NCBI GenBank assembly: GCA_040954595.2
Contig: CM082594.2
Location: 394,208-458,207, forward strand
Direction: 5' to 3'
DNA length: 64,000 nt
Source: Balanoglossus misakiensis
Taxonomy: Eukaryota; Animalia; Hemichordata
Made by a program: the position numbers and the translations under genes. Position 1 is the stretch's first letter, and every line of letters begins with the position of its first letter. Below, piece after piece: positions 2,043 to 64,000 of the stretch. A model generated the notes under the pieces. It saw only the letters and a list, made by a program, of their open reading frames with translations. It was not told where the DNA came from and made no database searches.

Positions 2043-2078
2043 TAAATTACGAATTCCAGATATGCTATTACTAATTAA

Positions 2079-8267: not shown

Positions 8268-8375
8268 GACTTTCTAATGTATCTGCTAGTACACGGTTAC
8301 ACCAGGTTTCAGTCCAACGTCATCTGAGAACTATGTAGGATCCAATTCCTACTTGCATGGGCCCCTCGACACTCG

Positions 8376-8974
8376 TGTTGTATAAAAATTCTCCTTTTAT
8401 TTTACTCTCTACGAGGAGCAAACTGTTCGGTGCATACAAAATAGACCGTGCACGACGTAATAACACGGTTCTAATACTGGTATAACACTGGTATAACACG
8501 GGTACAACACGGTTCTGTATAAACAAATACATAGACGAAATAAATTCAAGTAAGTATTCAAAGGTAAATGTAAAATGCCGATACAGAAGTTCAAACTCAA
8601 TTACAAAGCAAATTCCAAAAATACAGCGTTTACAGGTAAGTAAATTCAAATCAATTCTATTCAATCGCTCAAAATTAATGGTTTATAAATGAAGTAGTCT
8701 GCGTCCTGGATAGTCGCTGCTTCTGTTGAAAGACCGCTCTGTATCGCTAAATAAAACAGTCTTACCTCAGATGGTGACGCTTTTAGGGGCTCAAAAAGCA
8801 TGCAGTGCAGTGGTCACAAACATGTAGCCTAGAAGGCCTGACGTGGCAAAATGAAAACTTGCACACTGGCGAGGTGCCAATTTATAGTGAAAAGGAAATT
8901 TGCATATTGGATAACCACTATGTGCATGTGCACCTGCACACACAGCCATCCAATCAGGGAGGACTGCACTTACA
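8376..8974 (-). repeat. Probable 5' LTR of the BEL element (inner boundary uncertain)
   Basis: Minus strand starts TGT at 8974; TATAAA near 8880-8885; AATAAA at 8396-8401; candidate end ...TACAACA at 8376 (alternative ...TTCAACA at 8724). No partner LTR and no clear TGG primer-binding site, so the inner end is a guess. Confidence 0.55.
8461..8515. repeat. About five copies of an 11-bp minirepeat (taacactggta-like) in the BEL LTR/leader
   Basis: taacacggttc taatactggta taacactggta taacacgggta caacacggttc read directly. Confidence 0.8.
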
Positions 8975-38800: not shown

Positions 38801-41742
38801 AATTTCATACATCACCAGATATCCAAATATGAAAAAATGATTTAGATTTTAGATGATTGTCCAAAATTAGCTGATATCTAATAAATGTAGTATTGAACCG
38901 TTCTGTCCCCCCCTACATTATATGCGGTACGCCGATGTCAGCTTACCCGGCAGTACTGCAGGCCGTGCCCCCAAATAACGTCGGTGTGTGAAACGCCCTG
39001 GTTAAATTCGGGCTTTCTCTATAAATTGACAGGCAATAATGCAGTCCTACCCGAACAAATGTCGAGTGTTGACCCGCTGTGACTTTCCCTCTTCGGTTTG
39101 CCCGACTTAGCCAACGTCTTTGTACTAATGTGTCGGGTCTTTTGCAGAGCCAGGCCGAAGGAAATCCGACTTGATCACCGTTGCTAACGAACGCTAGTGT
39201 CTGTCATGGTGTGCCGGGGTTTTAGAAGAGCCAGGCCGTAGGAGATCTGACTTGATCATCGTGGTCAATGTACGCGTGTTTCCGCTCTAAAGTGCCGGGG
39301 CTTCAGCTAAACCATGCCGTAGGAAATCCGACGTAATCACCGTTGATAACTTACGCCAGTCTGTGTCATATAGAGCCGGTGCACCAGCCGAATCACGCCG
39401 TAGGAAATCTGACTTGATCAACGTGGTCAATGTACGCCTGTTTCTGCTCTAGAGTGCCGGGGCTTCAGCTGAGCCAGGCCGTAGGAAACCCGACGTGATT
39501 ACCGTTGTTAACTTACGCCAGTCTGTGTCCTATATATAGTGCCGGGGCATCAGCCGTGCCAGGCCGAAGGAAATGTGAGTAGATCAACGTGGTCTCTGTA
39601 CGCGTGTTTCTGCTCTAGAGTGCCGGGGCTTTATCCAAGCCATGCCGTAGAAAATCTGACTTGATCACCGTTGCTAACGTACGATAGTGTCTGTCATAGT
39701 GTGCCGGGGTTTTAGTCGAGCCAAGCCGTAGGAGATCAGACTTCATCAACGTGGTCTCTGTACGCGTGTTTCTGCTCTAGAGTGCCGGGGCTTTATCCGA
39801 GCTATGCCGTAGAAAATCTGACTTGATCACCGTTGCTAACTTACGCTAGTGTCTGTCATATTGTGACGGAGATTTAGCCGAGCCAGGCCGTAGAAAAATC
39901 GACTTGTTCAACGTTACCAGTGTGCAACTGTTTCTGCTCTAGAGTGTCAGGGTTTTAGCCGACTTGTGCTGTAGGAAATCTGAGTTGATGAACGGGAATT
40001 CAATGTTAGAAAACCCGTGTGTAAAGTATCTCTACCCGTTTGAAACTAAGAAAAGAATTTATTCTTATTTATTTTGTGAAACAAGACAATTTTTCGAAAA
40101 AAAGTCGAAAATGGTAATTTTGTCTTGGGTGATTCAAATTATACCACATTTTCTGGAATTTGCAGCACTTTTTACAAGAGAACGACACTTCATGCTCCAT
40201 AATATTTCCGAAAATGAAGAAAAGAGTTTATTTTTTATGATTTTTTAAAAATGTACCATTTTGTCAAAATATGGCCAAAATGGCTATTTTTTCTTGAATT
40301 CCGTCAATATCTCTGCATTTTTGGAGTGGTCGAAAGTTTTAACATACAATCAACATGTCATATATGATCAGGGCACCAAATTCGAAGAACGAAGGTTTTT
40401 TTATTTTATTTTTCTAAAAATGACATTTTCAAGGAAAATTTGGTAAAACGCAATTTTGTCTGCAGTGAGCCAAATTAGACGGTCTTTTGTGGAATTTGTA
40501 TCGATATATATATACGAAGAGCATTCTATACTCCATCAGATTTCCGAAAATGTAGAAAACAGGTATTTTTTGTAATTTTCAAAAATTTACCATTTTGACC
40601 AAATTGTGGTTAAAATTGTTATTTTCGTGTTGAATGCCGCCAGTGTCACTGCTTTTAAAAGTCATAAAAACTTTTAACATGCAAGCAATTGCTTATATAT
40701 GATCAGGCCACCGAATTAAAAAAATAAAGAATGTTTTGCCTAAAAATGACCTTTTTGGTGCAAAAACGATTAAAACGCAATTTTGTATTAAATCAGCTCA
40801 TTCAGAGTGCATTTTTTATAATCAGCACCATTTTTACATATATTGGAAATTTCATACATCACCAGATATCCAAATATGAAAAAATGATTTAGATTTTAGA
40901 TGATTGTCCAAAATTAGCTGATATCTAATAAATGTAGTATTGAACCGTTCTGTCCCCCCCTACATTATATGCGGTACGCCGATGTCAGCTTACCCGGCAG
41001 TACTGCAGGCCGTGCCCCCAAATAACGTCGGTGTGTGAAACGCCCTGGTTAAATTCGGGCTTTCTCTATAAATTGACAGGCAATAATGCAGTCCTACCCG
41101 AACAAATGTCGAGTGTTGACCCGCTGTGACTTTCCCTCTTCGGTTTGCCCGACTTAGCCAACGTCTTTGTACTAATGTGTCGGGTCTTTTGCAGAGCCAG
41201 GCCGAAGGAAATCCGACTTGATCACCGTTGCTAACGAACGCTAGTGTCTGTCATGGTGTGCCGGGGTTTTAGTCGAGCCAGGCCGTAGGAGATCTGACTT
41301 GATCATCGTGGTCAATGTACGCGTGTTTCCGCTCTAAAGTGCCGGGGCTTCAGCTAAACCATGCCGTAGGAAATCCGACGTAATCACCGTTGATAACTTA
41401 CGCCAGTCTGTGTCATATAGAGCCGGTGCACCAGCCGAATCACGCCGTAGGAAATCTGACTTGATCAACGTGGTCAATGTACGCCTGTTTCTGCTCTAGA
41501 GTGCCGGGGCTTCAGCTGAGCCAGGCCGTAGGAAACCCGACGTGATTACCGTTGTTAACTTACGCCAGTCTGTGTCCTATATATAGTGCCGGGGCATCAG
41601 CCGTGCCAGGCCGAAGGAAATGTGAGTAGATCAACGTGGTCTCTGTACGCGTGTTTCTCCTCTAGAGTGCCAGGGCTTTAGCCAAGCCATGCCGTAGGAA
41701 ATCTGACTTGATCAACGTTGCTAACGAACGCTAATGTCTGTC

Positions 41743-41775
41743 CATAGACAGTGGAGAAAAGACGGACGTGCTACT
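41743..41775 (+). repeat. Left terminal inverted repeat (33 bp)
   Basis: CATAGACAGTGGAGAAAAGACGGACGTGCTACT, exact reverse complement of 51024-51056. Confidence 0.98.
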
Positions 41776-42009
41776 AGTGCATTTCTTTTGTAGTAACGTC
41801 TGTTGTAATCCCTTTTAATCCACCAAACAATAGACAAACTCATCATCACCTCTTTATCGCCGTCTGGCGATAAAACCTCGCATAATATCGCAAAACGCGA
41901 GAGTTACCACGAGAAAAAGCGTAATATTTCGTGCTACGCGAGACGTTATTTGGCGAGATTCGGGTCACAGGTCATAAGTTGTTTACAAGCGGCTCGCAGC
42001 ACATACACA

Positions 42010-44343
42010 ATGGCTTCCGTCCAAACCGATAGCGAATTTGTTGCCGTTTTTACTGATTCCGAATACAGCGATTTCGATTATTCAGGGAGCGAGACTAGCG
42101 ACGACGATGATACATCGCCACTTACCGACGACGAGTTACAAGAAGGCATGCAGCAAGCTCCTAAACGTCGAGACTTGAGCTATCTTGATCGATACATCGT
42201 TTGCGTCGGTGGTGATACAAAAACTATCAAATGTGACGTTTGTGACAAAACTTTCAACAGAAAGCAGAGTTGCAAGCAGCATTTGATAAATGGCCATGGG
42301 CTAGTCGGTAAGTTTTACTGCTATTTTGTTGATCGAAATGTGGAGCAAGGCGTTGGTCACAAGCTGAAACTACACCGCCTGGTACCTGTACATTTTTACT
42401 GTCTATGATTTTTAAAGACATCCCATAATCATAATGATCGTCGCCAAGCATGGATATGAATGAAGAATGTTTTTCAAGGCCAAAAATGTCATGCGAAAAA
42501 AATGAGCAACATATGGGCTGCACAGATAAACAGATTGTTATGAATATGGGCAAAGCAGACTAATGGGTCCCCTTCAAGTTAATGGTAGCAATTTCCCTTG
42601 GTAGTTTACATTGTCTAAGCTGATCAGGATCAGACATACAACTGTGCCACAAGTTTTCTAACAACTAACTAAAATGAAAAACTGGAAATACAAGTAAAGA
42701 AAGATATGCTATATTATGTTAAAATGAAATAAAAGTGTTATGAGTAAAACACTTCAGACATATTTCAAAATACCATAGACACTAGGCAGCCATTGATTAT
42801 TACTGTTGATGCCAGAAACATTTCTCTGTATTTTCCCTCCATTATCAACATTTTATTATTATTCTATCCCTGTCGTGCTCACAACTCATTATTGATCATT
42901 TTTCCTTTCCAGGACCAGACATGGTGAAAAGAACAGACTGTGATCCAAAGAAAAACGTTTTGAAAGGAGCTGGGGTTTCCAAGAAGATTAACAACAAAGG
43001 TAAGCTAAGAACACATATTTAGTAACTGTGATTATTTATCTTTCAAAATATGATTTCATTTCTAATGTGAGACAAAGACAGTAGAGAAACAGTACTCCCA
43101 TACTTAAAAGGGACACTCACAGTTTCATAGCTGTCTATGCTGCCACTTTGGGGGAAATTTCACTGTTTTGCTTTCCATCATAAATATTGGCAAAACAGTG
43201 GTGGCAATTTACAGTTACTGTGGCGTTATTCTGAATATGTAAGATAAAACTTTCTTTTCATTTTTGTTGTCGGGCACCAGTGTCACTGACCAATCAACTA
43301 TAACAATATTTTTCCCCACAGAGAACAGACCCACCAGGAAACTACAAATGACAATGGATGATGCAACGCAGGAAGCCCAACGGATCCTTCTAGCCTCAAT
43401 CAAACCACTCACCGTTGACAGCATTTTCAACAGTCCTAGATTACCTGGTGTTTCCAAAGTTAAAGTTGTTGCAAAGAAACTGTGTGATACATTGTCAAGT
43501 GATCCAGTAAGTGTAAAAAGTGAACTGGATGCAGTGATACAAGTGCTGTGGCCTGCTGTTACTGGAGGAGACAGACAGTTCCTTCCTTCGCGGCGCCGAG
43601 AAGAGATGTTTCGCATATTCCACTCTTTGCGCCTGGATCCAGAATTACGGAAATGTCTACACAAGCTTTGTTCAAAAGTTGGGTTGACAGTATCAGGACC
43701 TGTTCTCATGATTTTAGCCAGGCACATTTTTGAAGGTTTAGTTTTAGAAAGGGAAAAGGTCACCACAATTGATGAGAGCTTCAGCGGGGATATGAGTCGT
43801 GTTGAAGAAAACATTCTGAGGTATGCCTGTGGTTACATCCCTATGGCTCTCATATCTCAACTTCAGAAACGTGGATCAGGGTTTAGAAGCATGGTAAAGT
43901 GTTTGGAGGGTATGAGTACAATTCAGCCTGTATCAACATTTTTGTCTTACACAACAGAATGGGTCAACAAAGAGAACCGGGGCGGTCTGTACACTGTGAA
44001 TGACACAACTTATATGTTTTTTAGGAGGGTAGAGTATTTTGTAAGGAAACACAACAAGGCCCTTTTTACCAGTGGTGATTTAAACATTCACGATTTAGTA
44101 AGCAAGGATGTTACAGGTGATGCAGCTGCAGTGCAGCACTGGTCACAATTATCTGTAGGCCTTGATGAGGGTCAGTCATTGAAGCTGATGTTAATGTGTA
44201 GTAAAATGTGGATCAATATCAGAGGCCATTCTGCAGCTAGGAAATTAGTTGAGGGCCTTAAATATACTGAGGGAATGAAGAATCGTAGTCAGAAAGCACT
44301 TCGAAAAGAACTTAAACAGCTTAATACAGATGACAACAAGTAA
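42010..44343 (+). CDS. P-element second gene: C2H2 zinc finger plus P-transposase C-terminal-domain-like protein, ~468 aa, 3 exons
   Basis: Predicted exons 42010-42307, 42913-42999, 43322-44343 joined by GT-AG introns (gtaagt/ccag, gtaagc/acag), both phase 1, 1407 nt with no internal stop. Acidic N-terminus, CDVC-x12-H-x4-H finger, then EENILRYACGYI...EWVNKENRGGL...WINIRGH...KALRKELK. AATAAA at 44460 and 44467. Confidence 0.82.
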
Positions 44344-44772
44344 AGTTTGTCAAATCCGACCATTATTTATTGCACCATATATTGTAAACTGTCAGGTTGA
44401 AAATTTTCTTTGAACATGTACACGTTTAAGATTGAAAAATGTACTAGCATGTGTTGAGTAATAAAGAATAAATTGCAGTACAGTGTATTTCGTAAGAGTG
44501 TGCTTTTAACAGTGAATGTGATCCTCTAACAGTACACAGAGCATAATCCTCCAATGATGAATGATTCAGATTTTTTTACTCCACCAACAGAAACTGTTCT
44601 GAGAGGTATGCATACACACCTAAAATATTTTACAGAAAAAATAAAACAGTGTTGTTCTCCAACTAAACTTTGAAAGCAATGACTCATTGAATGGATGATG
44701 GCATCACCGGCGGCAACAACAACATCAGTTTTCAGCAACAATGGATTCGAGTGAAAAAAAAAAACAACAAAA

Positions 44773-45029
44773 ACTGTTCGCTCCTATTTCTGTTCTGTGT
44801 ATCTTAAATGTTTGGTACCCAGGACAGAAACTTACAGCTAATGTCAGAGGGTAAAAAAGGACTGTTTGTTCACTAATGAATTCCAGTGAAAGTAAAGAAA
44901 ATTCATTGCCCACTGAAATTCCCCCCCCCCCAAAAAAAAACATCAACAACGACTGTTCGCTCACTATTTCTGTTCTGTGTATCTTAAATGTTTGGTACCC
45001 AGAACAGAAACTTACAGCTAATGTCAGAG
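44773..45029. repeat. ~78-bp direct repeat, two copies (44773-44849 and 44952-45029), between the convergent genes
   Basis: actgttcgctc(a)ctatttctgttctgtgtatcttaaatgtttggtacccag(g/a)acagaaacttacagctaatgtcagag occurs twice. Confidence 0.9.
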
Positions 45030-45121
45030 TGTGACATAAATCTCACTGTCATCTGCTATTACTCATTCATCTCAACATAACAATTTCTGTGACATATCCA
45101 CTGAGATAAATTCAAACAGTC

Positions 45122-48100
45122 CTACGGATGTGAATGTCTGGTATGGGAACGTCTTGGCAGTGCTGTGTTATCCAGCGGCGCATCAGCCATTGTTGTAACA
45201 TTGGCTCCTCTCACAGACAAAACGTGTGAAGACTTCAGCCGAAGAGCATTGGCATTTTGGCAGAACTGTTGCACTGAGGGTGCCTCATTCCCACCCTTCA
45301 TTTGGCGTTGATTCCCGAAATAGGACTCCAAAGGATCCTGGTTGAGTTTCTCTGAGAGAACACACTCCACACCCGGTTGGTTGAGTAGGTACCTTGCCAA
45401 GTCAACAAATGACTTCACTGTAGAATGGAATAAAAAGAATGCAGTATAGGATGGTTAGTAAGGGAAGGATTTCAGTGGTCGTAATAAATAGTGTACAACA
45501 ACATCACAATACCATGTACAGGATTTGTTAAATTGGCAGGTTACACTAGCACTCAGTAACTCTTCATTAATTTTTGCTTGCATTTTAGTACGGTTTGATA
45601 ATTAAAAAATATTTTGCACTCACAGCATTTTTTACCAGCCAAGCAGCCTGTAAAGCCACCGTTTCAAATTGGTCTTTTTGGACAGAGAGATTATAGCCAA
45701 CCAAAGTGAAAACTTACTAGAGACAAATTCTCATTATAGGGGTTGCCACTAACACACACTTGGTTGTATTAACAGTGCCTCCTCAGTTACAATGAGAATT
45801 AACATTCCACAGGGAGTGATTAAAAAATTAGAGAATGAAGTAAATTATAAAGACAAAATATTGATATATTTTATTACAGACAGTGGCACAAGATTTCCAC
45901 TGTCTATGATTTTATGTTATTTACCTGACATGCGGATACCTTCCAAGGTTTGTTGACTTAGCTTCATGCGGCCTTTGTCCCGTTTTGACAGATGAACTCT
46001 GGCATCAACTCTAGCATCCCAGTCGCTAAGATATGTCAGGAACTCACCCTCAAGCCACTAGATGGGTTGAAATGTGAAGAAATCACAATATTTTATTTCA
46101 TTAACATGTACATTGCAGCTCATAACTTGATCCTATTATACCTATCAATTTCTGAATATGTCTTATCAAAGTTCAAAGTTATATGCATACATATATAAGG
46201 CAGCGGAAAGCTCTCCCTTCACAATTCATTTTTACTACCGAATGAACAGAACTAAAATTCTTTGTGAAATATGCTACACTGTTCACAGCATCTCTTGTCC
46301 TTAATTGGCAGAGAGGCTTGTGTCTTAAATGAAAAATGTACTGATATAATGAATAATGCCGGAATGCATGTATGTTATAGACAACAGGAAATATGAGATG
46401 GTATTTTTTTACATCATGACAATAGGTTATTGAACATAAATTAAAGACATATACAGATACATATACTTACAGTCAGTCTTTCATCGTCTGGTGATCTGTA
46501 GGGCAACAGATTCGGTTTCCTCTTTTGTATGCCTTCTTTGGTACTTCGAACATTCATACAATCAAAGAACTTGTCAAAATGTCGTATAAATTCAATGGTG
46601 GCTCTGTGACCATTGCCATAGAATGTCTCTATGGCATTTGCCACTTGTGTACTAAGCACCTGTGAGCAAGTAGATATAAAAATATATCACTTTTCTGTTT
46701 CACAATTGCCATCTTGTATTAATTTTATAATAGCAGGATGATCAGACAATTCACTTGCATCACACAACATATCTTATTATCATGATATATGACCTAACAT
46801 TATCTCTTCTATGTGGTGTCAAACACAGATCTCAAGACCTTGCTAATAAACTGTATTGTGGGAAAATATTTAACAAATGGAAATAAATTACTTACTTGAA
46901 CAGCATACTTCACTTTCATCCTGGAGAAAGATGTTAGATGCACATGTTCATATCTCAGCTTGTTGCAGAGAAACAATCCTCCTCTTTCCAGATCTGCTTT
47001 GTACATATCAATGACAGTTTGCCAGTTGATCGGTTCACCATTCTAAGTGAGAAAAAAAAGGAAAATGCAATCATTAATTAACATAAAAAATGACCCATTG
47101 TTTTTATTAAAACTTTATAAGATCTTGATATATTTTTGCATAAATTATTTACATATAAGCATAATGGCAATAATAAGATAATAAGAAAAAAGCTAAATAT
47201 TTGTTTCTATACACACTGTAAAAAGTACAGAATTATAATAGGCTTTTACCCATAACATTCTTTTCTTTGAATGGCATCCCGAATTTGACCAACAATTCCT
47301 AGTGGTTTTCATTAGGTGTGGTACGTCTGAAAAGAAATATATCCGCCGGTCCTCTTCTGTACAGTAGTTTTCGGTCCAGTAGACAACGTCTGCAGCAGCC
47401 CTTGGTCCCATTGCATGCAGCTTATAAAATCGCCTGTTAGCTGACGCACCATCAGAAGTAGAAGCCATTACTCTGAACCCTATTAGTTCTAGAAATTCAA
47501 TTGCTCTCCATATCAAGGGGAAAAGATAGTCTGCCGTTATGGTGTTTGTGGGAAAATGGGCTAGTGGATACTGGAGCCTGAGTGTTATGCCTCTAACCAT
47601 GAAAGTAAGGATGTAGCGGGCAACTTCAGGAGTTGGTTTCTGACCATCAGTCTTCAGGGTCTTCTCATACAACATGAGCGAATTGCTGAAGTCCCCAATG
47701 TTGACGAAGCCAATGAGTTGGCCACTACTCTTGACATAAACCAGATCGGAGGAGATGCGCAACTCATCATGAAGAAGGACAACATACTTCTGGTGTTCTT
47801 CCAGCTGGCTGAAATTACTTTCTCGCAGTAGCTGATCAAAGGCTGCTTCTGTGAAACCAGTGGTTGCCTTAGTCCAGTGCGTGTAATCAATAAGTGTTCT
47901 TTCATGGGGTAATTCAAGAACACCAGAGTCCCGTAATGTGTTGTATGCTGCACTCGATCGTAAACGCAGATTCAAACACCATTTTATAAACATTGGGTGC
48001 CAGCGATGGCCTCGTTTATCAGCACATCGAAGGGCTTCTTTTTGCTGTTCCCAAAACAACCTGCGAAATGTCCCTTCTGTATTTTCTTCCTGTATGACGC

Positions 48101-49379
48101 TATCATATTCACTTATGATCTGCTTCATACTTGATGAGGTCTCACTATCCAAACACTCCCCTTCTTGATTGATGCTCTCCTGCAGCTTTACTCTCAGCCT
48201 GGCTTCACTGGCTTCTACTCGGCGTTTTGCTTTTATTATATTGTGTGTTCTCTGGTAAAGTTCATCAGCTGTTAAAGCTGATAGCGGGACAGAGCTACTG
48301 GCATGTACTCTATGGGCTGCTGGATCGTCTTCATGGCTACCTGCATTTCTCCTCTTCTGTCTGCTAAGCACAGCAAACATTGTTTTCCTTAGCTGCTCGC
48401 ACGGGCTGCATCGAACTTTGCTGGTGGTCAATTCACAGTTGGCCGCTCGCAGGGTTGTGTTATACCATTTGCCTCCTTCGCCTTCAAGCAGTACCTGCTG
48501 ACGAACCATTTGCCCAGTAAGTCCTCTACCATTCTGGATCTCTGGAACTGACCAGAACTTTTCATCAGGATTTCCCGAACAGATGCGCATTTCATGAATT
48601 TCTTGGACTACTGACAGGACAACAGAAGGACTTTGGAGCAGAGTAGGATATTGGGGAAAAACTGTCTTGACATCCATGACTTGGCCGAAGACTCGTACTT
48701 GCCATGAGCCATCTTGCTGGACTGTAAGTGACTTCATGATCACCGACTCCTGACCAACTTGGGACTGGACAAACAGGAAGTTCAGTTGAGAGTTGTCTGA
48801 CTGGTCTACCCATCCTTTTGGTAGGCAACAGGTCTTCAGGACAGCTCGGATCGCTTCAAAATTCATTGGCATGTAAGAGCCAACATTTAGTCCCGGAAAA
48901 CTGGATGATCTAGCAGGATGGACTTGCGATTGCTTGTCAACATGTTCTTGGTGTCTATATCTTCCGAACGCCGACAGTGGAGGGGGGTTTGCTTGCAGGA
49001 CAACCATGGGTGGCACATCGTTGCTTTCTTGAAAATCTGGCTTGTGAATGTCCTGGCTTTGGGATATGTCTGACATACCATGTTCAGCAGTTGTTACGGT
49101 TGTAGTGTTTTCTTGCTGTGACAAACCATTCAGTGCTTCCACAGTGTTAAGCCATAGTAGCTGTTCATCGACACTGGGGATCACATTGGAGCAGGACAGT
49201 TCATCTACACAGTCATTAAGGTTTTCAACACGTGCAGGTTCACACTCATGACAATCTGGTGAATCAACCAAAGCCTGATTCTCATTATCCAGCAGCTTCT
49301 TCTTTTTCTCTTTCGATCGTCTAGTTTTATTCTTTTTATAATTCTTCCTGTGCTGACTGATACCATACTTGTAGGGCAT
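45122..49379 (-). CDS. P-element (THAP9-like) transposase, ~964 aa, 5 coding exons
   Basis: Predicted exons 49379-47250, 47042-46896, 46659-46471, 46057-45925, 45417-45122, all GT-AG with compatible phases (0,0,0,1). Motifs: RWHPMFIKWCL, SSAAYNTLR, LPHERTL, VLLHDELRI (D), STSDGASANR (D), FSDVPHLMKTTRN, RMKVKYAVQVLS, DKFFDCMN, NQDPLESYFGNQRQ (E). Confidence 0.93.
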
Positions 49380-50802
49380 GACAGTATTCTGTTAGAATAG
49401 AAAAGAAAGAATAAGCTCACTGAAATATCGGAAGATAATATTGTATATGCATGCACCTTACCTAAATAAATAGTTTTCAAAACTTAAGGCCTTATGGATA
49501 CTAGGAAAAATGTTTTTGATCTGGTAGCAGAATTGCAGGCCAACAATGATATTGCGCCTTGGTAAAAAAAAGCTCGGAATATTGATTGATTTTAATTAAC
49601 AGAAATTTTGATAATGCATGAAGTTGTGATCAAATAACTCAATAACCACAGGCTTTGTTGTTGCAGTCCCACATAAATCATTATAATAGCCTATGAAATA
49701 ACAAAACAAGCTCCACTGTACATTAAAAACTAATCTGTCTTTTCACAGCTTTAAATTGTTAGAATCATCAAACATCTCAAGTCCATGAACAGACACAGTT
49801 GAGCCACTGTCTATCTTAGAACTCAAGGCTAAGTTCATGGATGACCCAAATCAAATGTGACCTGGCACCCAAAGGTCATCACTCAAAAAAAATGTACAAA
49901 TTGTCTTTCTGGCATTGATATACAAAAAAATCACCATGCAAAATATTGACTTCAAACAGATTAATTGTCCGTTCGTGACATGTTTTTTTCGATGACTATA
50001 CACAATCCCCGATCGGTGATAAGTACGCAAAAATGACCGGATACACAACAGCTGGAGTTGCTGTACCAAGTTTCTTTCTAAACAAAGAGCAGTGTATTCA
50101 ATAGGGAATTACGGGAAGAAAGATGGCGCCCGCTGACGCGACAACACCATATTTCCCGTCCGATAAAACCATTTCTGGGCAAGCTAGGCACACGAAACAT
50201 TCATGTTGCAAATCCCAACATCCTAAAGGACGACTACATATATACAACTTTCTGTTTTTTGTTACGAATTTATCTCAAAAGGGGGAAACGTAACACTAAT
50301 GACGCACTCACCCTACCCGACAAACGTACGAGGCCTCACGAGGTAATTCTACATAAAAACGCACGAATTTAAAAACACAAGTCGTATTTTTTATATTATT
50401 ACAATATGTACACCATAACGACAAACAAAGATAGCCACAAACCCGAAATTATGAAGAAATCTGACTACGTAATCGCACTTTTCTGCACCTCAGCAAAGAC
50501 AAACTGGTCGGAAATAGGCGTCCCAAACAAATATTTCCCCCCATAAAAACGACGTTTCTGTCACATTTAGCCACAAACAAAATCCCCATTGCAAATGCTG
50601 ACATTCTAAAGATTGATCACAAAAAAACGATTTTCTGTTTCATGTCATAAATTTGTCGTAAAAGGGGTAAACTCACACCATAGCCACTGTCTATGCTCAC
50701 ATATCGCTACATATGTGGACACGAGTAGTCAAACATGACGACCAGCGATTGTATTTTACATCGAAGGTAACTATCTACACAAAAAAAACTAAACACACTT
50801 AC

Positions 50803-50950
50803 CTACTAGATGTATAACTGGTCGAACAACAGGCACGGGGTAAAGGAACCAGGGGAAAAACGAAAAACAATGGCAAAAAGGGAACACGCGTAGTAGATGC
50901 GGTACGGTCAAATCCAAGATGGCGACTGACTGTTTACACGGTGTTGCAAC
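50803..50950 (-). promoter_or_regulatory. Putative transposase promoter and non-coding first exon
   Basis: YY1-like CAAGATGGCG at 50915-50924; minus-strand donor AG|GTAAGT at 50802; acceptor ...ttctaacag 9 nt upstream of the ATG (exon start 49388). Inference, no transcript data. Confidence 0.45.
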
Positions 50951-51023
50951 ATGGGTATTACCGGGCCGTTACCCAACAGACGTTGCTCCCGGATTATCGC
51001 CGTTTTCCTTTGTTGTCTGCGGC

Positions 51024-51056
51024 AGTAGCACGTCCGTCTTTTCTCCACTGTCTATG
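51024..51056 (-). repeat. Right terminal inverted repeat (33 bp)
   Basis: AGTAGCACGTCCGTCTTTTCTCCACTGTCTATG followed by TSD GTCTGTC. Confidence 0.98.
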
Positions 51057-54000
51057 GTCTGTCAAAGTGTGCCGGGGTTTTAGTCGAGCCAAGCCGTAGG
51101 AGATCAGACTTGATCAACGTGGTCTCTGTACGCGTGTTTCTGCTCTAGAGTGCCGGGGCTTTATCCAACCCATGCCGTAGAAAATCTGACTTGATCACCG
51201 TTGCTAACGTACGCTAGTGTCTGTCATATTGTGACGGAGATTTAGCCGAGCCAGGCCGTAGAAAAATCGACTTGTTCAACGTTACCAGTGTGCAACTGTT
51301 TCTGCTCTAGAGTGTCAGGGTTTTAGCCGACTTATGCTGTAGGAAATCTTAGTTGATGACGGGAATTCAATGTTAGAAAACCCGTGTGGAAAGTATCTCT
51401 ACCCGTTTGAAACTAAGAAAAGAATTTATTCTTATTTATTTTGTAAAAAAGACAATTTTTCGAAAAAAAGTCGAAAAATTGCAATTTTGTCTTGGGTGAT
51501 TCAAATTATACCGCCTTTTCTGGAATTTGCAGCACTTTTTACAAGAGAACGACACTTCATGCTCCATAATATTTCCGAAAATGAAGAAAAGAGTTTATTT
51601 TTTATGATTTTTTAAAAATGTACCATTTTGTCAAAATATGGCCAAAATGGCTATTTTTTCTTGAATTCCGTCAATATCTCTGCATTTTTGGAGTGGTCGA
51701 AAGTTTTAACATACAATCAACATGTCATATATGATCAGGGCACCAAATTCGAAGAACGAAGGTTTTTTTATTTTATTTTTCTAAAAATGACATTTTCAAG
51801 AAAAATTTGGTAAAACGCAATTTTGTCTGCAGTGAGCCAAATTAGACGGTCTTTTGTGGAATTTGTATCGATATATATATACGAAGAGCATTCTATACTC
51901 CATCAGATTTCCGAAAATGTAGAAAACAGGTATTTTTGTAATTTTCAAAAATTTACCATTTTGACCAAATTGTGGTTAAAATTGTTATTTTCGTGTTGAA
52001 TGCCGCCAGTGTCACTGCTTTTAAAAGTCATAAAAACTTTTAACATGCAAGCAATTGTTTATATATGATCAGGTCACCGAATTAAAAATATAAAGAATGG
52101 TTTGCCTAAAAATGACCTTTTTGGTGCAAAAACGAATAAAACGCAATTTTGTATTAAATCAGTTCATTCAGAGTGCATGTTTTATAATAAGCACCATTTT
52201 TACATATAATGGAAATTTCATACATCATCAGATATCCAAATATGAAAAAATGATTTAGATTTTAGATGATTGTCCAAAATTAGCTGATATCTAATACATG
52301 TAGTATTGAACCGTTCTGTCCCCCCCCCCCCCCCCTTACATTATATGCGGTACGCCGATGTCAGCTTACCCGGCAGTACTGTAGGCCGTGCCCCCAACAA
52401 ACGTCGGTGTTTGAAACGCCCTGGTTAAATTCGGGCTCTCTCTATAAATTGACAGGCAATAATGCAGTCCTACCCGAACAAATGTCGAGTGTTGACCCGC
52501 TGTGACTTTCCCTCTTCGGTTTGCCCGACTTAGCCAACGTCTTTGTACTAATGTGTCGGGTCTTTTGCAGAGCCAGGCCGAAGGAAATCCGACTTGATCA
52601 CCGTTGCTAACGAACGCTAGTGTCTGTCATGGTGTGCCGGGGTTTTAGAAGAGCCAGGCCGTAGGAGATCTGACTTGATCATCGTGGTCAATGTACGCGT
52701 GTTTCCGCTCTAAAGTGCCGGGGCTTCAGCTAAACCATGCCGTAGGAAATCCGACGTAATCACCGTTGATAACTTACGCCAGTCTGTGTCATATAGAGCC
52801 GGTGCACCAGCCGAATCACGCCGTAGGAAATCTGACTTGATCAACGTGGTCAATGTACGCCTGTTTCTGCTCTAGAGTGCCGGGGCTTCAGCTGAGCCAG
52901 GCCGTAGGAAACCCGACGTGATTACCGTTGTTAACTTACGCCAGTCTGTGTCCTATATATAGTGCCGGGGCATCAGCCGTGCCAGGCCGAAGGAAATGTG
53001 AGTAGATCAACGTGGTCTCTGTACGCGTGTTTCTGCTCTAGAGTGCCCGGGCTTTATCCAAGCCATGCCGTAGAAAATCTGACTTGATCACCGTTGCTAA
53101 CGTACGATAGTGTCTGTCATAGTGTGCCGGGGTTTTAGTCGAGCCAAGCCGTAGGAGATCAGACTTCATCAACGTGGTCTCTGTACGCGTGTTTCTGCTC
53201 TAGAGTGCCGGGGCTTTATCCGAGCTATGCCGTAGAAAATCTGACTTGATCACCGTTGCTAACTTACGCTAGTGTCTGTCATATTGTGACGGAGATTTAG
53301 CCGAGCCAGGCCGTAGAAAAATCGACTTGTTCAACGTTACCAGTGTGCAACTGTTTCTGCTCTAGAGTGTCAGGGTTTTAGCCGACTTGTGCTGTAGGAA
53401 ATCTGAGTTGATGAACGGGAATTCAATGTTAGAAAACCCGTGTGTAAAGTATCTCTACCCGTTTGAAACTAAGAAAAGAATTTATTCTTATTTATTTTGT
53501 GAAACAAGACAATTTTTCGAAAAAAAGTCGAAAATGGTAATTTTGTCTTGGGTGATTCAAATTATACCACATTTTCTGGAATTTGCAGCACTTTTTACAA
53601 GAGAACGACACTTCATGCTCCATAATATTTCCGAAAATGAAGAAAAGAGTTTATTTTTTATGATTTTTTAAAAATGTACCATTTTGTCAAAATATGGCCA
53701 AAATGGCTATTTTTTCTTGAATTCCGTCAATATCTCTGCATTTTTGGAGTGGTCGAAAGTTTTAACATACAATCAACATGTCATATATGATCAGGGCACC
53801 AAATTCGAAGAACGAAGGTTTTTTTATTTTATTTTTCTAAAAATGACATTTTCAAGGAAAATTTGGTAAAACGCAATTTTGTCTGCAGTGAGCCAAATTA
53901 GACGGTCTTTTGTGGAATTTGTATCGATATATATATACGAAGAGCATTCTATACTCCATCAGATTTCCGAAAATGTAGAAAACAGGTATTTTTTGTAATT

Positions 54001-57000
54001 TTCAAAAATTTACCATTTTGACCAAATTGTGGTTAAAATTGTTATTTTCGTGTTGAATGCCGCCAGTGTCACTGCTTTTAAAAGTCATAAAAACTTTTAA
54101 CATGCAAGCAATTGCTTATATATGATCAGGCCACCGAATTAAAAAAATAAAGAATGTTTTGCCTAAAAATGACCTTTTTGGTGCAAAAACGATTAAAACG
54201 CAATTTTGTATTAAATCAGCTCATTCAGAGTGCATTTTTTATAATCAGCACCATTTTTACATATATTGGAAATTTCATACATCACCAGATATCCAAATAT
54301 GAAAAAATGATTTAGATTTTAGATGATTGTCCAAAATTAGCTGATATCTAATAAATGTAGTATTGAACCGTTCTGTCCCCCCCTACATTATATGCGGTAC
54401 GCCGATGTCAGCTTACCCGGCAGTACTGCAGGCCGTGCCCCCAAATAACGTCGGTGTGTGAAACGCCCTGGTTAAATTCGGGCTTTCTCTATAAATTGAC
54501 AGGCAATAATGCAGTCCTACCCGAACAAATGTCGAGTGTTGACCCGCTGTGACTTTCCCTCTTCGGTTTGCCCGACTTAGCCAACGTCTTTGTACTAATG
54601 TGTCGGGTCTTTTGCAGAGCCAGGCCGAAGGAAATCCGACTTGATCACCGTTGCTAACGAACGCTAGTGTCTGTCATGGTGTGCCGGGGTTTTAGTCGAG
54701 CCAGGCCGTAGGAGATCTGACTTGATCATCGTGGTCAATGTACGCGTGTTTCCGCTCTAAAGTGCCGGGGCTTCAGCTAAACCATGCCGTAGGAAATCCG
54801 ACGTAATCACCGTTGATAACTTACGCCAGTCTGTGTCATATAGAGCCGGTGCACCAGCCGAATCACGCCGTAGGAAATCTGACTTGATCAACGTGGTCAA
54901 TGTACGCCTGTTTCTGCTCTAGAGTGCCGGGGCTTCAGCTGAGCCAGGCCGTAGGAAACCCGACGTGATTACCGTTGTTAACTTACGCCAGTCTGTGTCC
55001 TATATATAGTGCCGGGGCATCAGCCGTGCCAGGCCGAAGGAAATGTGAGTAGATCAACGTGGTCTCTGTACGCGTGTTTCTGCTCTAGAGTGCCGGGGCT
55101 TTATCCAAGCCATGCCGTAGAAAATCTGACTTGATCACCGTTGCTAACGTACGATAGTGTCTGTCATAGTGTGCCGGGGTTTTAGTCGAGCCAAGCCGTA
55201 GGAGATCAGACTTCATCAACGTGGTCTCTGTACGCGTGTTTCTGCTCTAGAGTGCCGGGGCTTTATCCAAGCCATGCCGTAGAAAATCTGACTTGATCAC
55301 CGTTGCTAACGTACGCTAGTGTCTGTCATATTGTGACGGAGATTTAGCCGAGCCAGGCCGTAGAAAAATCGACTTGTTCAACGTTACCAGTGTGCAACTG
55401 TTTCTGCTCTAGAGTGTCAGGGTTTTAGCCGACTTATGCTGTAGGAAATCTGAGTTGATGAACGGGAATTCAATGTTAGAAAACCCGTGTGGAAAGTATC
55501 TCCTCCCGTTTGAAACTAAGAAAAGAATTTATTCTTATTTATTTTGTTAAAAAGACAATTTTTCGAAAAAAAGTCGAAAATGGTAATTTTGTCTTGGGTG
55601 ATTCAAATTATACCACCTTTTCTGGAATTTGCAGCACTTTTTACAAGAGAACGACACTTCATGCTCCATAATATTTCCGAAAATGAAGAAAATAGTTAAT
55701 TTTTTATGATTTTTTAAAAATTTACCATTTTTGTCAAAATATGGCCAAAATGGCTATTTTTTCTTGAATTCCGTCAATATCTCTGCATTTTTGGAGTGGT
55801 CGAAAGTTTTAACATACAATCAACATGTCATATATGATCAGGGCACCAAATTCGAAGAACGAAGGTTTTTTTATTTTATTTTTCTAAAAATGACATTTTC
55901 AAGGAAAATTTGGTAAAACGCAATTTTGTCTGCAGTGAGCCAAATTAGACGGTCTTTTGTGGAATTTGTATCGATATATATATACGAAGAGCATTCTATA
56001 CTCCATCAGATTTCCGAAAATGTAGAAAACAGGTATTTTTTGTAATTTTCAAAAATTTACCATTTTGACCAAATTGTGGTTAAAATTGTTATTTTCGTGT
56101 TGAATGCCGCCAGTGTCACTGCTTTTAAAAGTCATAAAAACTTTTAACATGCAAGCAATTGCTTATATATGATCAGGCCACCGAATTAAAAAAATAAAGA
56201 ATGTTTTGCCTAAAAATGACCTTTTTGGTGCAAAAACGAATAAAACGCAATTTTGTATTAAATCAGCTCATTCAGAGTGCATTTTTTATAATCAGCACCA
56301 TTTTTACATATATTGGAAATTTCATACATCATCAGATATCCAAATATGAAAAAATGATTTAGATTTTAGATGATTGTCCAAAATTAGCTGATATCTAATA
56401 AATGTAGTATTGAACCGTTCTGTCCCCCCCCCCTACATTATATGCGGTACGCCGATGTCAGCTTACCCGGCAGTACTGCAGGCCGTGCCCCCAAATAACG
56501 TCGGTGTTTGAAACGCCCTGGTTAAATTCGGGCTTTCTCTATAAATTGACAGGCAATAATGCAGTCCTACCCGAACAAATGTCGAGTGTTGACCCGCTGT
56601 GACTTTCCCTCTTCGGTTTGCCCGACTTAGCCAATGTCTTTGTGCTAATGTGTCGGGTCTTTTGCAGAGCCAGGCCGAAGGAAATCCGACTTGATCACCG
56701 TTGCTAACGAACGCTAGTGTCTGTCATGGTGTGCCGGGGTTTTAGTCGAGCCAGGCCGTAGGAGATCTGACTTGATCATCGTGGTCAATGTACGCGTGTT
56801 TCCGCTCTAAAGTGCCGGGGCTTCAGCTAAACCATGCCGTAGGAAATCCGACGTAATCACCGTTGATAACTTACGCCAGTCTGTGTCATATAGAGCCGGT
56901 GCACCAGCCGAGTCACGCCGTAGGAAATCTTACTTGATCAACGTGGTCAATGTACGCCTGTTTCTGCTCTAGAGTGCCGGGGCTTCAGCTGAGCCAGGCC

Positions 57001-60000
57001 GTGGGAAACCCGACGTGATTACCGTTGTTAACTTACGCCAGTTTGTGTCCTATATATAGTGCCGGGGCATCAGCCGTGCCAGGCCGAAGGAAATGTGAGT
57101 AGATCAACGTGGTCTCTGTACGCGTGTTTCTCCTCTAGAGTGCCAGGGCTTTAGCCAAGCCATGCCGTAGGAAATCTGACTTGATCAACGTTGCTAACGA
57201 ACGCTAATGTCTGTCATAGTGTGCCGGGGTTTTAGTCGAGCCAAGCCGTAGGAGATCAGACTTGATCAACGTGGTCTCTGTACGCGTGTTTCTGCTCTAG
57301 AGTGCCGGGGCTTTATCCAACCCATGCCGTAGAAAATCTGACTTGATCACCGTTGCTAACGTACGCTAGTGTCTGTCATATTGTGACGGAGATTTAGCCG
57401 AGCCAGGCCGTAGAAAAATCGACTTGTTCAACGTTACCAGTGTGCAACTGTTTCTGCTCTAGAGTGTCAGGGTTTTAGCCGACTTATGCTGTAGGAAATC
57501 TTAGTTGATGACGGGAATTCAATGTTAGAAAACCCGTGTGGAAAGTATCTCTACCCGTTTGAAACTAAGAAAAGAATTTATTCTTATTTATTTTGTAAAA
57601 AAGACAATTTTTCGAAAAAAAGTCGAAAAATTGCAATTTTGTCTTGGGTGATTCAAATTATACCGCCTTTTCTGGAATTTGCAGCACTTTTTACAAGAGA
57701 ACGACACTTCATGCTCCATAATATTTCCGAAAATGAAGAAAAGAGTTTATTTTTTATGATTTTTTAAAAATGTACCATTTTGTCAAAATATGGCCAAAAT
57801 GGCTATTTTTTCTTGAATTCCGTCAATATCTCTGCATTTTTGGAGTGGTCGAAAGTTTTAACATACAATCAACATGTCATATATGATCAGGGCACCAAAT
57901 TCGAAGAACGAAGGTTTTTTTATTTTATTTTTCTAAAAATGACATTTTCAAGAAAAATTTGGTAAAACGCAATTTTGTCTGCAGTGAGCCAAATTAGACG
58001 GTCTTTTGTGGAATTTGTATCGATATATATATACGAAGAGCATTCTATACTCCATCAGATTTCCGAAAATGTAGAAAACAGGTATTTTTTGTAATTTTCA
58101 AAAAATTACCATTTTGACCAAATTGTGGTTAAAATTGTTATTTTCGTGTTGAATGCCGCCAGTGTCACTGCTTTTAAAAGTCATAAAAACTTTTAACATG
58201 CAAGCAATTGTTTATATATGATCAGGTCACCGAATTAAAAATATAAAGAATGTTTTGCCTAAAAATGACCTTTTTGGTGCAAAAACGAATAAAACGCAAT
58301 TTTGTATTAAATCAGTTCATTCAGAGTGCATGTTTTATAATAAGCACCATTTTTACATATAATGGAAATTTCATACATCATCAGATATCCAAATATGAAA
58401 AAATGATTTAGATTTTAGATGATTGTCCAAAATTAGCTGATATCTAATAAATGTAGTATTGAACCGTTCTGTCCCCCCCCCCCCCCCCTTACATTATATG
58501 CGGTACGCCGATGTCAGCTTACCCGGCAGTACTGTAGGCCGTGCCCCCAACAAACGTCGGTGTTTGAAACGCCCTGGTTAAATTCGGGCTCTCTCTATAA
58601 ATTGACAGGCAATAATGCAGTCCTACCCGAACAAATGTCGAGTGTTGACCCGCTGTGACTTTCCCTCTTCGGTTTGCCCGACTTAGCCAACGTCTTTGTA
58701 CTAATGTGTCGGGTCTTTTGCAGAGCCAGGCCGAAGGAAATCCGACTTGATCACCGTTGCTAACGAACGCTAGTGTCTGTCATGGTGTGCCAGGGTTTTA
58801 GAAGAGCCAGGCCGTAGGAGATCTGACTTGATCATCGTGGTCAATGTACGCGTGTTTCCGCTCTAAAGTGCCGGGGCTTCAGCTAAACCATGCCGTAGGA
58901 AATCCGACGTAATCACCGTTGATAACTTACGCCAGTCTGTGTCATATAGAGCCGGTGCACCAGCCGAATCACGCCGTAGGAAATCTGACTTGATCAACGT
59001 GGTCAATGTACGCCTGTTTCTGCTCTAGAGTGCCGGGGCTTCAGCTGAGCCAGGCCGTAGGAAACCCGACGTGATTACCGTTGTTAACTTACGCCAGTCT
59101 GTGTCCTATATATAGTGCCGGGGCATCAGCCGTGCCAGGCCGAAGGAAATGTGAGTAGATCAACGTGGTCTCTGTACGCGTGTTTCTGCTCTAGAGTGCC
59201 GGGGCTTTATCCAAGCCATGCCGTAGAAAATCTGACTTGATCACCGTTGCTAACGTACGATAGTGTCTGTCATAGTGTGCCGGGGTTTTAGTCGAGCCAA
59301 GCCGTAGGAGATCAGACTTGATCAACGTGGTCTCTGTACGCGTGTTTCTGCTCTAGAGTGCCGGGGCTTTATCCGAGCTATGCCGTAGAAAATCTGACTT
59401 GATCACCGTTGCTAACTTACGCTAGTGTCTGTCATATTGTGACGGAGATTTAGCCGAGCCAGGCCGTAGAAAAATCGACTTGTTCAACGTTACCAGTGTG
59501 CAACTGTTTCTGCTCTAGAGTGTCAGGGTTTTAGCCGACTTGTGCTGTAGGAAATCTGAGTTGATGAACGGGAATTCAATGTTAGAAAACCCGTGTGTAA
59601 AGTATCTCTACCCGTTTGAAACTAAGAAAAGAATTTATTCTTATTTATTTTGTGAAACAAGACAATTTTTCGAAAAAAAGTCGAAAATGGTAATTTTGTC
59701 TTGGGTGATTCAAATTATACCACATTTTCTGGAATTTGCAGCACTTTTTACAAGAGAACGACACTTCATGCTCCATAATATTTCCGAAAATGAAGAAAAG
59801 AGTTTATTTTTTATGATTTTTTAAAAATGTACCATTTTGTCAAAATATGGCCAAAATGGCTATTTTTTCTTGAATTCCGTCAATATCTCTGCATTTTTGG
59901 AGTGGTCGAAAGTTTTAACATACAATCAACATGTCATATATGATCAGGGCACCAAATTCGAAGAACGAAGGTTTTTTTATTTTATTTTTCTAAAAATGAC

Positions 60001-63000: not shown

Positions 63001-64000
63001 ACTTACGCCAGTCTGTGTCATATAGAGCCGGTGCACCAGCCGAATCACGCCGTAGGAAATCTGACTTGATCAACGTGGTCAATGTACGCCTGTTTCTGCT
63101 CTAGAGTGCCGGGGCTTCAGCTGAGCCAGGCCGTAGGAAACCCGACGTGATTACCGTTGTTAACTTACGCCAGTCTGTGTCCTATATATAGTGCCGGGGC
63201 ATCAGCCGTGCCAGGCCGAAGGAAATGTGAGTAGATCAACGTGGTCTCTGTACGCGTGTTTCTGCTCTAGAGTGCCGGGGCTTTATCCAAGCCATGCCGT
63301 AGAAAATCTGACTTGATCACCGTTGCTAACGTACGATAGTGTCTGTCATAGTGTGCCGGGGTTTTAGTCGAGCCAAGCCGTAGGAGATCAGACTTCATCA
63401 ACGTGGTCTCTGTACGCGTGTTTCTGCTCTAGAGTGCCGGGGCTTTATCCAAGCCATGCCGTAGAAAATCTGACTTGATCACCGTTGCTAACGTACGCTA
63501 GTGTCTGTCATATTGTGACGGAGATTTAGCCGAGCCAGGCCGTAGAAAAATCGACTTGTTCAACGTTACCAGTGTGCAACTGTTTCTGCTCTAGAGTGTC
63601 AGGGTTTTAGCCGACTTGTGCTGTTGGAAATCTGAGTTGATGAACGGGAATTCAATGTTAGAAAACCCGTGTGGAAAGTATCTCCTCCCGTTTGAAACTA
63701 AGAAAAGAATTTATTCTTATTCATTTTGTTAAAAAGACAATTTTTCGAAAAAAAGTCGAAAATGGTAATTTTGTCTTGGGTGATTCAAATTATACCACCT
63801 TTTCTGGAATTTGCAGCACTTTTTACAAGAGAACGACACTTCATGCTCCATAATATTTCCGAAAATGAAGAAAATAGTTAATTTTTTATGATTTTTTAAA
63901 AATTTACCATTTTTGTCAAAATATGGCCAAAATGGCTATTTTTTCTTGAATTCCGTCAATATCTCTGCATTTTTGGAGTGGTCGAAAGTTTTAACATACA
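51057..64000 (+). repeat. Continuation of the ~2.05-kb satellite array (about 6.3 monomers; runs past window end)
   Basis: Resumes in register after the TSD; poly-C tracts at ~52320, 54377, 56424, 58473, 60530, 62557. Confidence 0.99.

What the first reader, a model, noticed from the sequence alone, without database searches (positions are those of the whole stretch)
42010..44343. Gene B: acidic leader, single C2H2 finger and CTD-like domain joined by phase-matched introns
The ORF track shows two unrelated ORFs (152 aa and 359 aa). Canonical splice sites and an 87-bp middle exon join them into one 468-aa frame with a Ser/Asp-rich N-terminus, a C-x2-C-x12-H-x4-H finger and a helical C-terminal domain. 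Inference: the finger may replace THAP in end recognition, or the protein may act as a repressor or targeting factor.
Basis: partly seen in the sequence, partly recalled or inferred. Interest (0 to 1): 0.7.

Follow-up and report, generated by a model that had tools for sequence, protein, structure and literature searches.

The report
P transposon's tail as separate gene
This likely three-exon gene lies inside an intact P-type jumping gene whose cutting enzyme lacks its usual tail domain, and it is predicted to make that tail as a separate protein with a zinc-finger leader, likely a helper that joins the enzyme on DNA.

Summary
The gene model holds: three exons, two GT-AG phase-1 introns, one open 468-aa frame. 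No RNA was available, but annotated 460-aa Saccoglossus and Glandiceps proteins have the same acidic leader, C2H2 finger and helical region. Exon 2 rests only on splice signals and linker length. Gene B faces the transposase gene of a 9,314-bp P-superfamily element (33-bp TIRs, 7-bp TSD, empty site in the window). That 964-aa transposase has no THAP and ends before the C-terminal domain (CTD). The modelled C-terminal half of gene B matches the Drosophila P transposase CTD best of 48,161 chains (Z 10.7; next 6.2). So the element is a split P transposon. The finger probably does not replace THAP: among 167 homologs 5 have C2H2, 1 has PHD, and two loci start gene B about 100 bp from the element end with no finger. 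The transposase carries its own four-cysteine domain. Best reading: a CTD subunit supplied in trans, with a swappable tethering leader; repressor is the main rival. Binding is untested. This scan noted the split layout before on three other genomes; my ten literature searches found no description.

The parts
41736..41742 (.). Left 7-bp target-site duplication GTCTGTC
   Evidence: Repeated at 51057-51063; the satellite unit at 35589 has identical flanks with one copy
41743..41775 (+). Left 33-bp terminal inverted repeat, starting CATAGACAGTGG
   Evidence: Perfect match to the right end
41795..41805 (+). 11-bp subterminal motif AACGTCTGTTG, 19 bp inside the left TIR
   Evidence: Inverted copy at 50974-50984; P = 0.016 over 3000 simulated pairs
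41854..41873 (.). Inverted pair of TTATCGCC; a third copy at 50994-51001 in the right end
   Evidence: candidate second binding site, untested
42010..42307 (+). Gene B exon 1: acidic leader (aa 1-45), conserved RRDLxxL motif, C2H2 finger
42232..42297 (+). C2H2 finger C75-x2-C78-x12-H91-x4-H96
   Evidence: Pfam zf-met E 2.7e-4; same finger in P0002, P0004, P0071, P0129, P0149
42308..42912 (+). Gene B intron 1, 605 bp, GT-AG, phase 1 (predicted)
42913..42999 (+). Gene B exon 2, 87 bp, basic linker (least certain exon; alternative acceptor 42919)
43000..43321 (+). Gene B intron 2, 322 bp, GT-AG, phase 1 (predicted)
43322..44343 (+). Gene B exon 3, the family-wide helical region and stop
43345..43758 (+). 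Helical domain aa 137-274, conserved in the family, no clear structural match
   Evidence: pLDDT mostly above 90; best Z 6.2
43786..44268 (+). P-transposase CTD fold, aa 284-444
   Evidence: 6p5a_B Z 10.7, rmsd 2.6, 115 of 118 residues; 11 of 146 family members match PF12596 at E <= 0.1
44293..44313 (+). Conserved basic end of the last helix, KxLRKxL (aa 453-459)
   Evidence: 75-96% conserved at five positions in alignment A2
44460..44472 (+). Two AATAAA poly(A) signals after gene B
45122..45417 (-). Transposase exon 5: RNase H C-part with E897; stop about 65 aa later, no CTD
   Evidence: PF21789 E 6.4e-7
45925..46057 (-). Transposase exon 4
   Evidence: GT-AG, in frame; aligns to P0168
46471..46659 (-). 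Transposase exon 3 (GTP-binding insertion region)
   Evidence: PF21788 on the aligned homolog P0168
46896..47042 (-). Transposase exon 2 (GTP-binding insertion region)
47250..49379 (-). Transposase coding exon 1: basic start, four-cysteine domain, coiled coil, HTH, RNase H N-part with D538 and D643; no THAP
   Evidence: PF21787 E 2.7e-24
48345..48887 (-). Transposase aa 165-345: alpha/beta domain followed by invariant C267, C315, C324, C327; candidate stand-in for THAP
   Evidence: 101 of 101 rows; confident model; only weak RWD/UBC-like matches, Z <= 6.3
50974..50984 (-). Right copy of the 11-bp subterminal motif, 39 bp inside the right TIR
51024..51056 (-). Right 33-bp terminal inverted repeat
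51057..51063 (.). Right 7-bp target-site duplication

Best explanation
Gene B is the second gene of a 9.3-kb P-superfamily transposon whose transposase lacks both THAP and the C-terminal domain, and it is predicted to supply that C-terminal domain as a separate protein that likely joins the transposase-DNA complex. Shown: element ends and TSD, two convergent open gene models, transposase without THAP or CTD, the same state across the transposase clade, gene B standing alone in its best homologs. Predicted: CTD fold of aa 284-444. Inferred: the two genes are transcribed inward from the two ends; the transposase binds and cuts the ends by its HTH, its GTP-binding insertion and possibly its four-cysteine domain; the gene B protein docks where the fused CTD sits in the Drosophila complex, holds the looped-out transposon strand and reaches target DNA with its basic last helix; its extra helical domain (aa 137-274) would take the place of the lost covalent link. 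In one sub-lineage an acidic leader with a swappable finger (C2H2 here, PHD in one homolog) would tether the protein to DNA or chromatin and so bias where or when insertion happens. A single finger would read only about 3-4 bp (established knowledge, no call), so it is a tether more than a site reader.
For: Element anatomy. Transposase model of 964 aa, no stop, aligned along all five exons to Glandiceps P0168; its family profile matches 6p5a chain A (E 1.6e-24) up to residue 559, where the CTD begins. All 12 of 120 homologs that reach the RNase H C-part end within 26 aa of the aligned region; 0 of 120 match the gene B profile or a THAP pattern; 0 of 10 scanned full-length ones match THAP or PF12596. 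Gene B: model pLDDT 93.8; top match 6p5a_B, Z 10.7, 115 of 118 residues, next 6.2; 11 of 146 members match PF12596, best E 6.8e-4; the three published CTD motif blocks (10.64898/2026.08.31.747927) recur in order at aa 293-305, 339-372, 417-437 (compared by eye). Family of 5,456 clusters at E <= 0.001, best 150 all 175-535 aa. The Drosophila CTD contacts transposon and target DNA and points a basic helix at the target (PMC7776569). All 8 leader-bearing rows fall in one 28-row part of a 120-row tree.
Against: Deleting the CTD left Drosophila transposase activity unchanged and raised THAP9 integration by about 60% in HEK293 cells (10.64898/2026.08.31.747927), so a CTD need not help transposition. 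Z 10.7 lies under the level of about 13 that the tool names as safe for helical models, Foldseek found no match, HMM searches of PDB sequences did not find the P CTD, and 135 of 146 members, the window protein among them, do not match PF12596. The 28-row group has weak support (SH-aLRT 77). Many short homologs may be last-exon gene calls (P0001 looks like one), so the finger census undercounts leaders. Only the best 150 of 5,456 hits were seen; fused forms may lie among the rest. Neighbourhood was read on DNA in one other locus only (1 of 3 fetched; L002 and L003 show no transposase).
Confidence: 0.55

Rival explanations
1. Gene B makes a repressor: the free CTD binds the transposase or the strand-transfer DNA and damps transposition, and the leader adds DNA or chromatin binding at the element's promoters.
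For: THAP9 without its CTD integrates about 60% more (10.64898/2026.08.31.747927). Drosophila P elements encode their own repressors (PMC7776569). A separate gene allows separate dosage.
Against: Known P repressors are N-terminal products (66 kDa, KP), not the CTD. The Drosophila CTD deletion had no effect. The DNA-facing basic helix end is among the best conserved parts across a family of thousands of clusters, which a selfish element would more readily keep for a positive role (inference).
Confidence: 0.2
2. One reading: the C2H2 finger replaces THAP, binds the 11-bp subterminal motif and brings the transposase to the ends through the CTD.
For: No THAP in the transposase or upstream frames. 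Inverted 11-bp motif 19 and 39 bp inside the TIRs (P = 0.016), like the unequal 9/21 spacing of Drosophila P. Finger plus basic linker kept in 5 homologs.
Against: L001 and L002 start gene B about 110 and 90 bp from a CATAGA end motif, with no finger. P0125 has PHD instead, P0165 an acidic leader only. Recognition-helix residues differ in all six fingers. The transposase has its own invariant four-cysteine domain. Limit: the N-termini of the transposases of the finger-less loci were not seen on the same contigs.
Confidence: 0.12
3. Gene B is a transcriptional activator of the element's own promoters (acidic region plus finger), its CTD fold serving as DNA anchor or dimer module.
For: Acidic stretch of 15 D/E in 45 aa next to a C2H2 finger; both promoters would lie at the ends.
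Against: 89 of 167 homologs have a complete domain with a short leader, and two loci cannot hold one; the constant part is the transposase-derived fold.
Confidence: 0.08
4. Gene B is a passenger host gene, or the spliced model is an accident of two unrelated ORFs.
For: No RNA evidence here; exon 2 is not conserved in sequence.
Against: Same three-part protein annotated in two other genera; CTD fold; tail-to-tail pairing in L001 and consecutive locus ids in Glandiceps.
Confidence: 0.03

Closest known systems
Drosophila melanogaster P element 87-kDa transposase (PDB 6P5A/6PE2)
   Same: HTH, split RNase H with GTP-binding insertion and DDE residues in the transposase; CTD fold in gene B; CA...TG ends, TIR of similar length, unequally spaced subterminal motif.
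   Different: One gene with THAP, six domains and 8-bp TSD. Here: two convergent genes, no THAP, CTD on a separate protein with an added helical domain and leader, four-cysteine N-terminal domain, 7-bp TSD.
Vertebrate THAP9 and zebrafish Pdre elements
   Same: P-type catalytic core; CTD motif blocks; Pdre2 TIR also starts CATA.
   Different: THAP and CTD are fused to the core; the THAP9-CTD paper says the fold is found only in THAP9 homologs, whereas here it stands alone in thousands of clusters.
ProtoRAG / RAG1L-RAG2L transposons (analogy only)
   Same: Tail-to-tail, intron-containing gene pair between TIRs; second protein carries a PHD finger in some lineages and has lost it in others (10.1101/100735).
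   Different: Transib-type transposase, 5-bp TSD, and a kelch propeller as second protein; gene B is a piece of the P transposase itself. No homology was tested or claimed.

Membership tests
P superfamily of DNA transposons | DDE transposase with split RNase H and GTP-binding insertion | tested here: met
   PF21787, PF21789 on window exons; PF21788 on aligned homolog P0168; profile hit 6p5a_A E 1.6e-24
P superfamily of DNA transposons | TIRs with CA...TG ends and a 7-8 bp TSD (7-bp form recalled, 8-bp) | tested here: met
   33-bp perfect TIR, 7-bp TSD, empty site at 35589
Canonical P element / THAP9 transposase | [quoted passage not shown] | tested here: not met
   No THAP in the 964-aa model or the three upstream frames; 0 of 120 homologs by pattern, 0 of 10 by Pfam
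Canonical P element / THAP9 transposase | CTD fused to the catalytic core in one gene | tested here: not met
   Stop about 65 aa after E897; 12 of 12 homologs that reach this region end within 26 aa of the alignment
Canonical P element / THAP9 transposase | GTP-dependent cut-and-paste activity | not testable with these tools
   Needs biochemistry; intact frames, perfect TIRs and TSD suggest a recent insertion
P-transposase CTD (PF12596 / THAP9-CTD) | Three-block helical fold of 6P5A chain B | tested here: met
   Z 10.7, rmsd 2.6, 115 of 118 aligned, next match 6.2; motif blocks recur in order. Caveat: helical model, Foldseek blank
P-transposase CTD (PF12596 / THAP9-CTD) | Pfam PF12596 above its curated cut-off | tested here: inconclusive
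   Window protein: no match; 11 of 146 members at E <= 0.1, best 6.8e-4; P0129 19.2 bits against 22.6
Classical C2H2 zinc finger | C-x2-C-x3-F-x8-H-x3-5-H spacing | tested here: met
   C75, C78, F82, H91, H96; zf-met above cut-off; the usual Leu at helix +4 is Cys
Classical C2H2 zinc finger | Sequence-specific DNA binding | not testable with these tools
   Needs gel shift or SELEX
RAG / ProtoRAG two-gene transposons | Transib-type transposase, kelch RAG2L, 5-bp TSD | tested here: not met
   P-type core, all-helical second protein, 7-bp TSD

The most novel reading that the evidence does not exclude
A large, old branch of P elements works as an obligate two-subunit transposase: a THAP-less core with a new zinc-binding end-recognition domain, plus a free CTD subunit that has become a plug-in targeting adaptor, swapping DNA readers (C2H2) and histone readers (PHD) at its N-terminus to steer insertion, a parallel to RAG1/RAG2 built from a piece of the transposase itself.
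Probability: 0.25. Interest if true: 0.85.

Novelty: new variant of a known kind. Interest (0 to 1): 0.6.

Why it matters
The role of the P transposase CTD is open: it touches transposon and target DNA in the structure, yet deletion had no effect in one enzyme and raised integration in another. An element that makes the CTD as its own protein lets that question be tested by adding or leaving out one gene. It also gives a function lead for a family of thousands of unnamed animal proteins, shows P elements that recognise their ends without THAP, and, if the leader steers insertion, offers a natural handle for targeting a transposase.

Tried and rejected
RNA: no RNA holder listed for 41900-49500; not evidence either way, so junctions are unseen. 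No whole genome was on hand, so copy number and other copies stay open. dN/dS was not run: the only related DNA (L001-L003) is 30-34% identical at protein level, too far for synonymous rates; protein conservation stands in for it. Complex prediction of the Glandiceps pair P0168 (405-939) with P0004 (132-460): no answer, score 0.00, partner fold uncertain. Search for fused long forms: none of 7,115 candidates of 806-2,300 aa scored, weak evidence. Genome contigs: 0 of 33 candidate stretches, viral contigs: 0 of 11. Foldseek on both models: no match at E <= 0.001. PDB sequence searches with A1 and A2: nothing under E 0.03. ESM Atlas: no usable hit for either query. No clear fold match for gene B aa 137-274 or transposase aa 165-440 (best Z 6.3, many RWD/UBC-like rows); no THAP structure was listed there, which does not exclude one. 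Exon 2 homology to the leader of P0021 looked possible by eye but failed (747 of 5000 shuffles). A nested mini-element from 42774 to 43139 around exon 2 was rejected: flanks are not duplicated. The first transposase join used wrong coordinates and was out of frame; corrected. The tree used 120 of the 146 rows of A2 (26 rows under 270 aa left out). Literature searches listed no paper on a two-gene or THAP-less P element; Repbase and most subscription journals are not covered. Earlier scan findings by place and by sequence: none; by finger words: none.

Full report
Observation. The three exons join into an open 468-aa frame through two GT-AG phase-1 introns of 605 and 322 bp. The finger is C75-x2-C78-x12-H91-x4-H96 and passes the Pfam zf-met cut-off. 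A search with exon 3 alone found 20 proteins among 1,723 candidates; two are 460-aa annotated proteins of Saccoglossus and Glandiceps whose N-termini, not used in the search, have the same acidic leader, RRDLxxL motif and finger. Exon 1 scores 135 and 179 against them, above all 1000 shuffles. So exon 1 and exon 3 belong to one protein. Exon 2 is less sure: no sequence support, but best splice signals of 12 candidates and a linker length (44 aa) in the homolog range of 36-65 aa, against 15 aa if skipped. Nearest named relatives are all acorn worms, so the host is probably a hemichordate (inference).

The element. Gene B lies in a 9,314-bp element, 41743-51056, with perfect 33-bp TIRs and a 7-bp duplication; an identical empty site with one copy lies at 35589 in the surrounding satellite. 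On the other strand five exons give a 964-aa transposase with no stop that aligns throughout to Glandiceps P0168. Pfam finds the P-type RNase H parts and the family profile matches the Drosophila P transposase, chain A, at E 1.6e-24, ending at residue 559. There is no THAP in the protein or in the frames upstream, and the protein stops about 65 aa after the third catalytic residue. This holds for the clade: of 215 homologs the best 120 were listed and none carries a precomputed THAP or PF12596 label; 0 of 120 match a THAP pattern; the 12 that reach the RNase H C-part end within 26 aa of the alignment. Many of the other 108 are exon-sized calls and say nothing about the end.

What gene B is. 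A profile search gave 5,456 clusters at E <= 0.001; the best 150 are 175-535 aa. The AlphaFold2 model of exon 3 is all-helical with pLDDT 93.8. Its best match among 48,161 chains is the Drosophila P transposase CTD, 6p5a_B 617-734: Z 10.7, rmsd 2.6, 115 of 118 residues, next 6.2. Against this, Foldseek found nothing and Z 10.7 is under the tool's safe level for helical models. Two separate lines agree with the match: PF12596 is the family most members hit (11 of 146, best E 6.8e-4), and the three CTD motif blocks given in 10.64898/2026.08.31.747927 recur in order among the conserved columns. The first half of exon 3 (aa 137-274) has no clear match. The pairing recurs: consecutive locus ids and equal contig length for the Glandiceps pair, equal contig length for P0016 and P0280, and both genes tail to tail on L001; L002 and L003 do not show a transposase.

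The finger. Of 167 homologs, 5 have a C2H2 finger after an acidic leader, 1 has a PHD finger in that place, 1 an acidic leader only, 4 other leaders, 89 a short leader and 67 are cut at the N-terminus (Pfam check). This census undercounts leaders, because intron-blind gene calls give only the last exon. But L001 and L002 start gene B about 110 and 90 bp from a TIR-like end motif, leaving no room for a finger exon. In a tree of 120 rows all 8 leader-bearing rows fall in one 28-row part, with weak support (SH-aLRT 77). The helix residues that would read DNA differ in all six fingers. Meanwhile the transposase has four cysteines invariant in 101 of 101 rows in a confidently modelled N-terminal domain with no clear fold match. 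The 11-bp subterminal motif is real (19 and 39 bp inside the TIRs, P = 0.016), but the transposase is the better candidate to read it.

Mechanism. [quoted passage not shown] Gene B keeps that fold and a conserved basic end. The simplest reading is that it fills the same seat in trans, with the leader as an optional tether (0.55). CTD deletions did not reduce activity in cells and raised THAP9 integration by about 60%, which keeps a repressor role open (0.2). THAP replacement by the finger is 0.12, promoter activator 0.08, passenger or artefact 0.03. All steps from fold to function are inferred.

Known and new. The element is a P-superfamily member by core, ends and TSD, but not a canonical P/THAP9 element: THAP and fused CTD were tested and not met. 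The layout recalls ProtoRAG, whose second gene has a PHD finger in some lineages (10.1101/100735); that is analogy only. Ten searches listed no paper on such an element; Repbase could hold it. This scan's notes report the split layout on three other genomes; I had written the same reading before seeing them, and they are not independent support. What this window adds is the spliced form with a swappable finger leader and the candidate THAP stand-in.

Papers seen. 10.64898/2026.08.31.747927: whole main text; its supplements, which list the CTD homologs and could include stand-alone ones, were not seen. PMC7776569, PMC10983969, PMC5753468 and 10.1101/100735: passages only. The original structure paper was not read; it is cited through the review and the PDB entry.

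Verdict. Real gene, real and undescribed-as-far-as-searched variant of a known superfamily; function untested. Interest 0.6.

Noticed in passing
window 42399, 43131, 45900, 50687: Four internal copies of the outer 9 bp of the TIR (two reach 12 bp), all in one orientation and all outside coding exons; 0.09 expected. Possibly extra transposase sites or remains of old self-insertions.
   Followed up: partly
window 48345-48887 (-): Transposase aa 165-345 folds confidently as an alpha/beta domain plus four invariant cysteines; weak RWD/UBC-like matches only. Candidate THAP stand-in, no Pfam family.
   Followed up: partly
window 2079-8273 (-): A stop-free 2,064-aa frame that reads like a BEL/Pao retrotransposon polyprotein (label from recalled motifs) inside the satellite; no long terminal repeat pair was found in 1900-9400.
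   Followed up: no
window 1-2050, about 9000-41742 and 51057-64000: Satellite of about 2.05-kb units with 81-bp subrepeats, copies mostly 95-100% alike, with a switch of orientation near 10.5-10.9 kb. The P element sits in one subrepeat.
   Followed up: partly
window 44784-44852 and 44964-45032: 69-bp direct repeat, 97% alike, 180 bp apart, between the 3' ends of the two genes; each copy is partly palindromic.
   Followed up: no
L001 186-220; L002 9177-9215: End motifs starting CATAGA that resemble the window TIR and share GGGATxGGAAACGC, about 110 and 90 bp before a finger-less gene B start. Their far ends are not on the contigs.
   Followed up: partly
L002 5572-8093 (-): An unrelated frame pair that looks like a hAT-type transposase (label recalled, not scanned) next to the gene B homolog, whose own frame is shifted near 9914-9929.
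   Followed up: no
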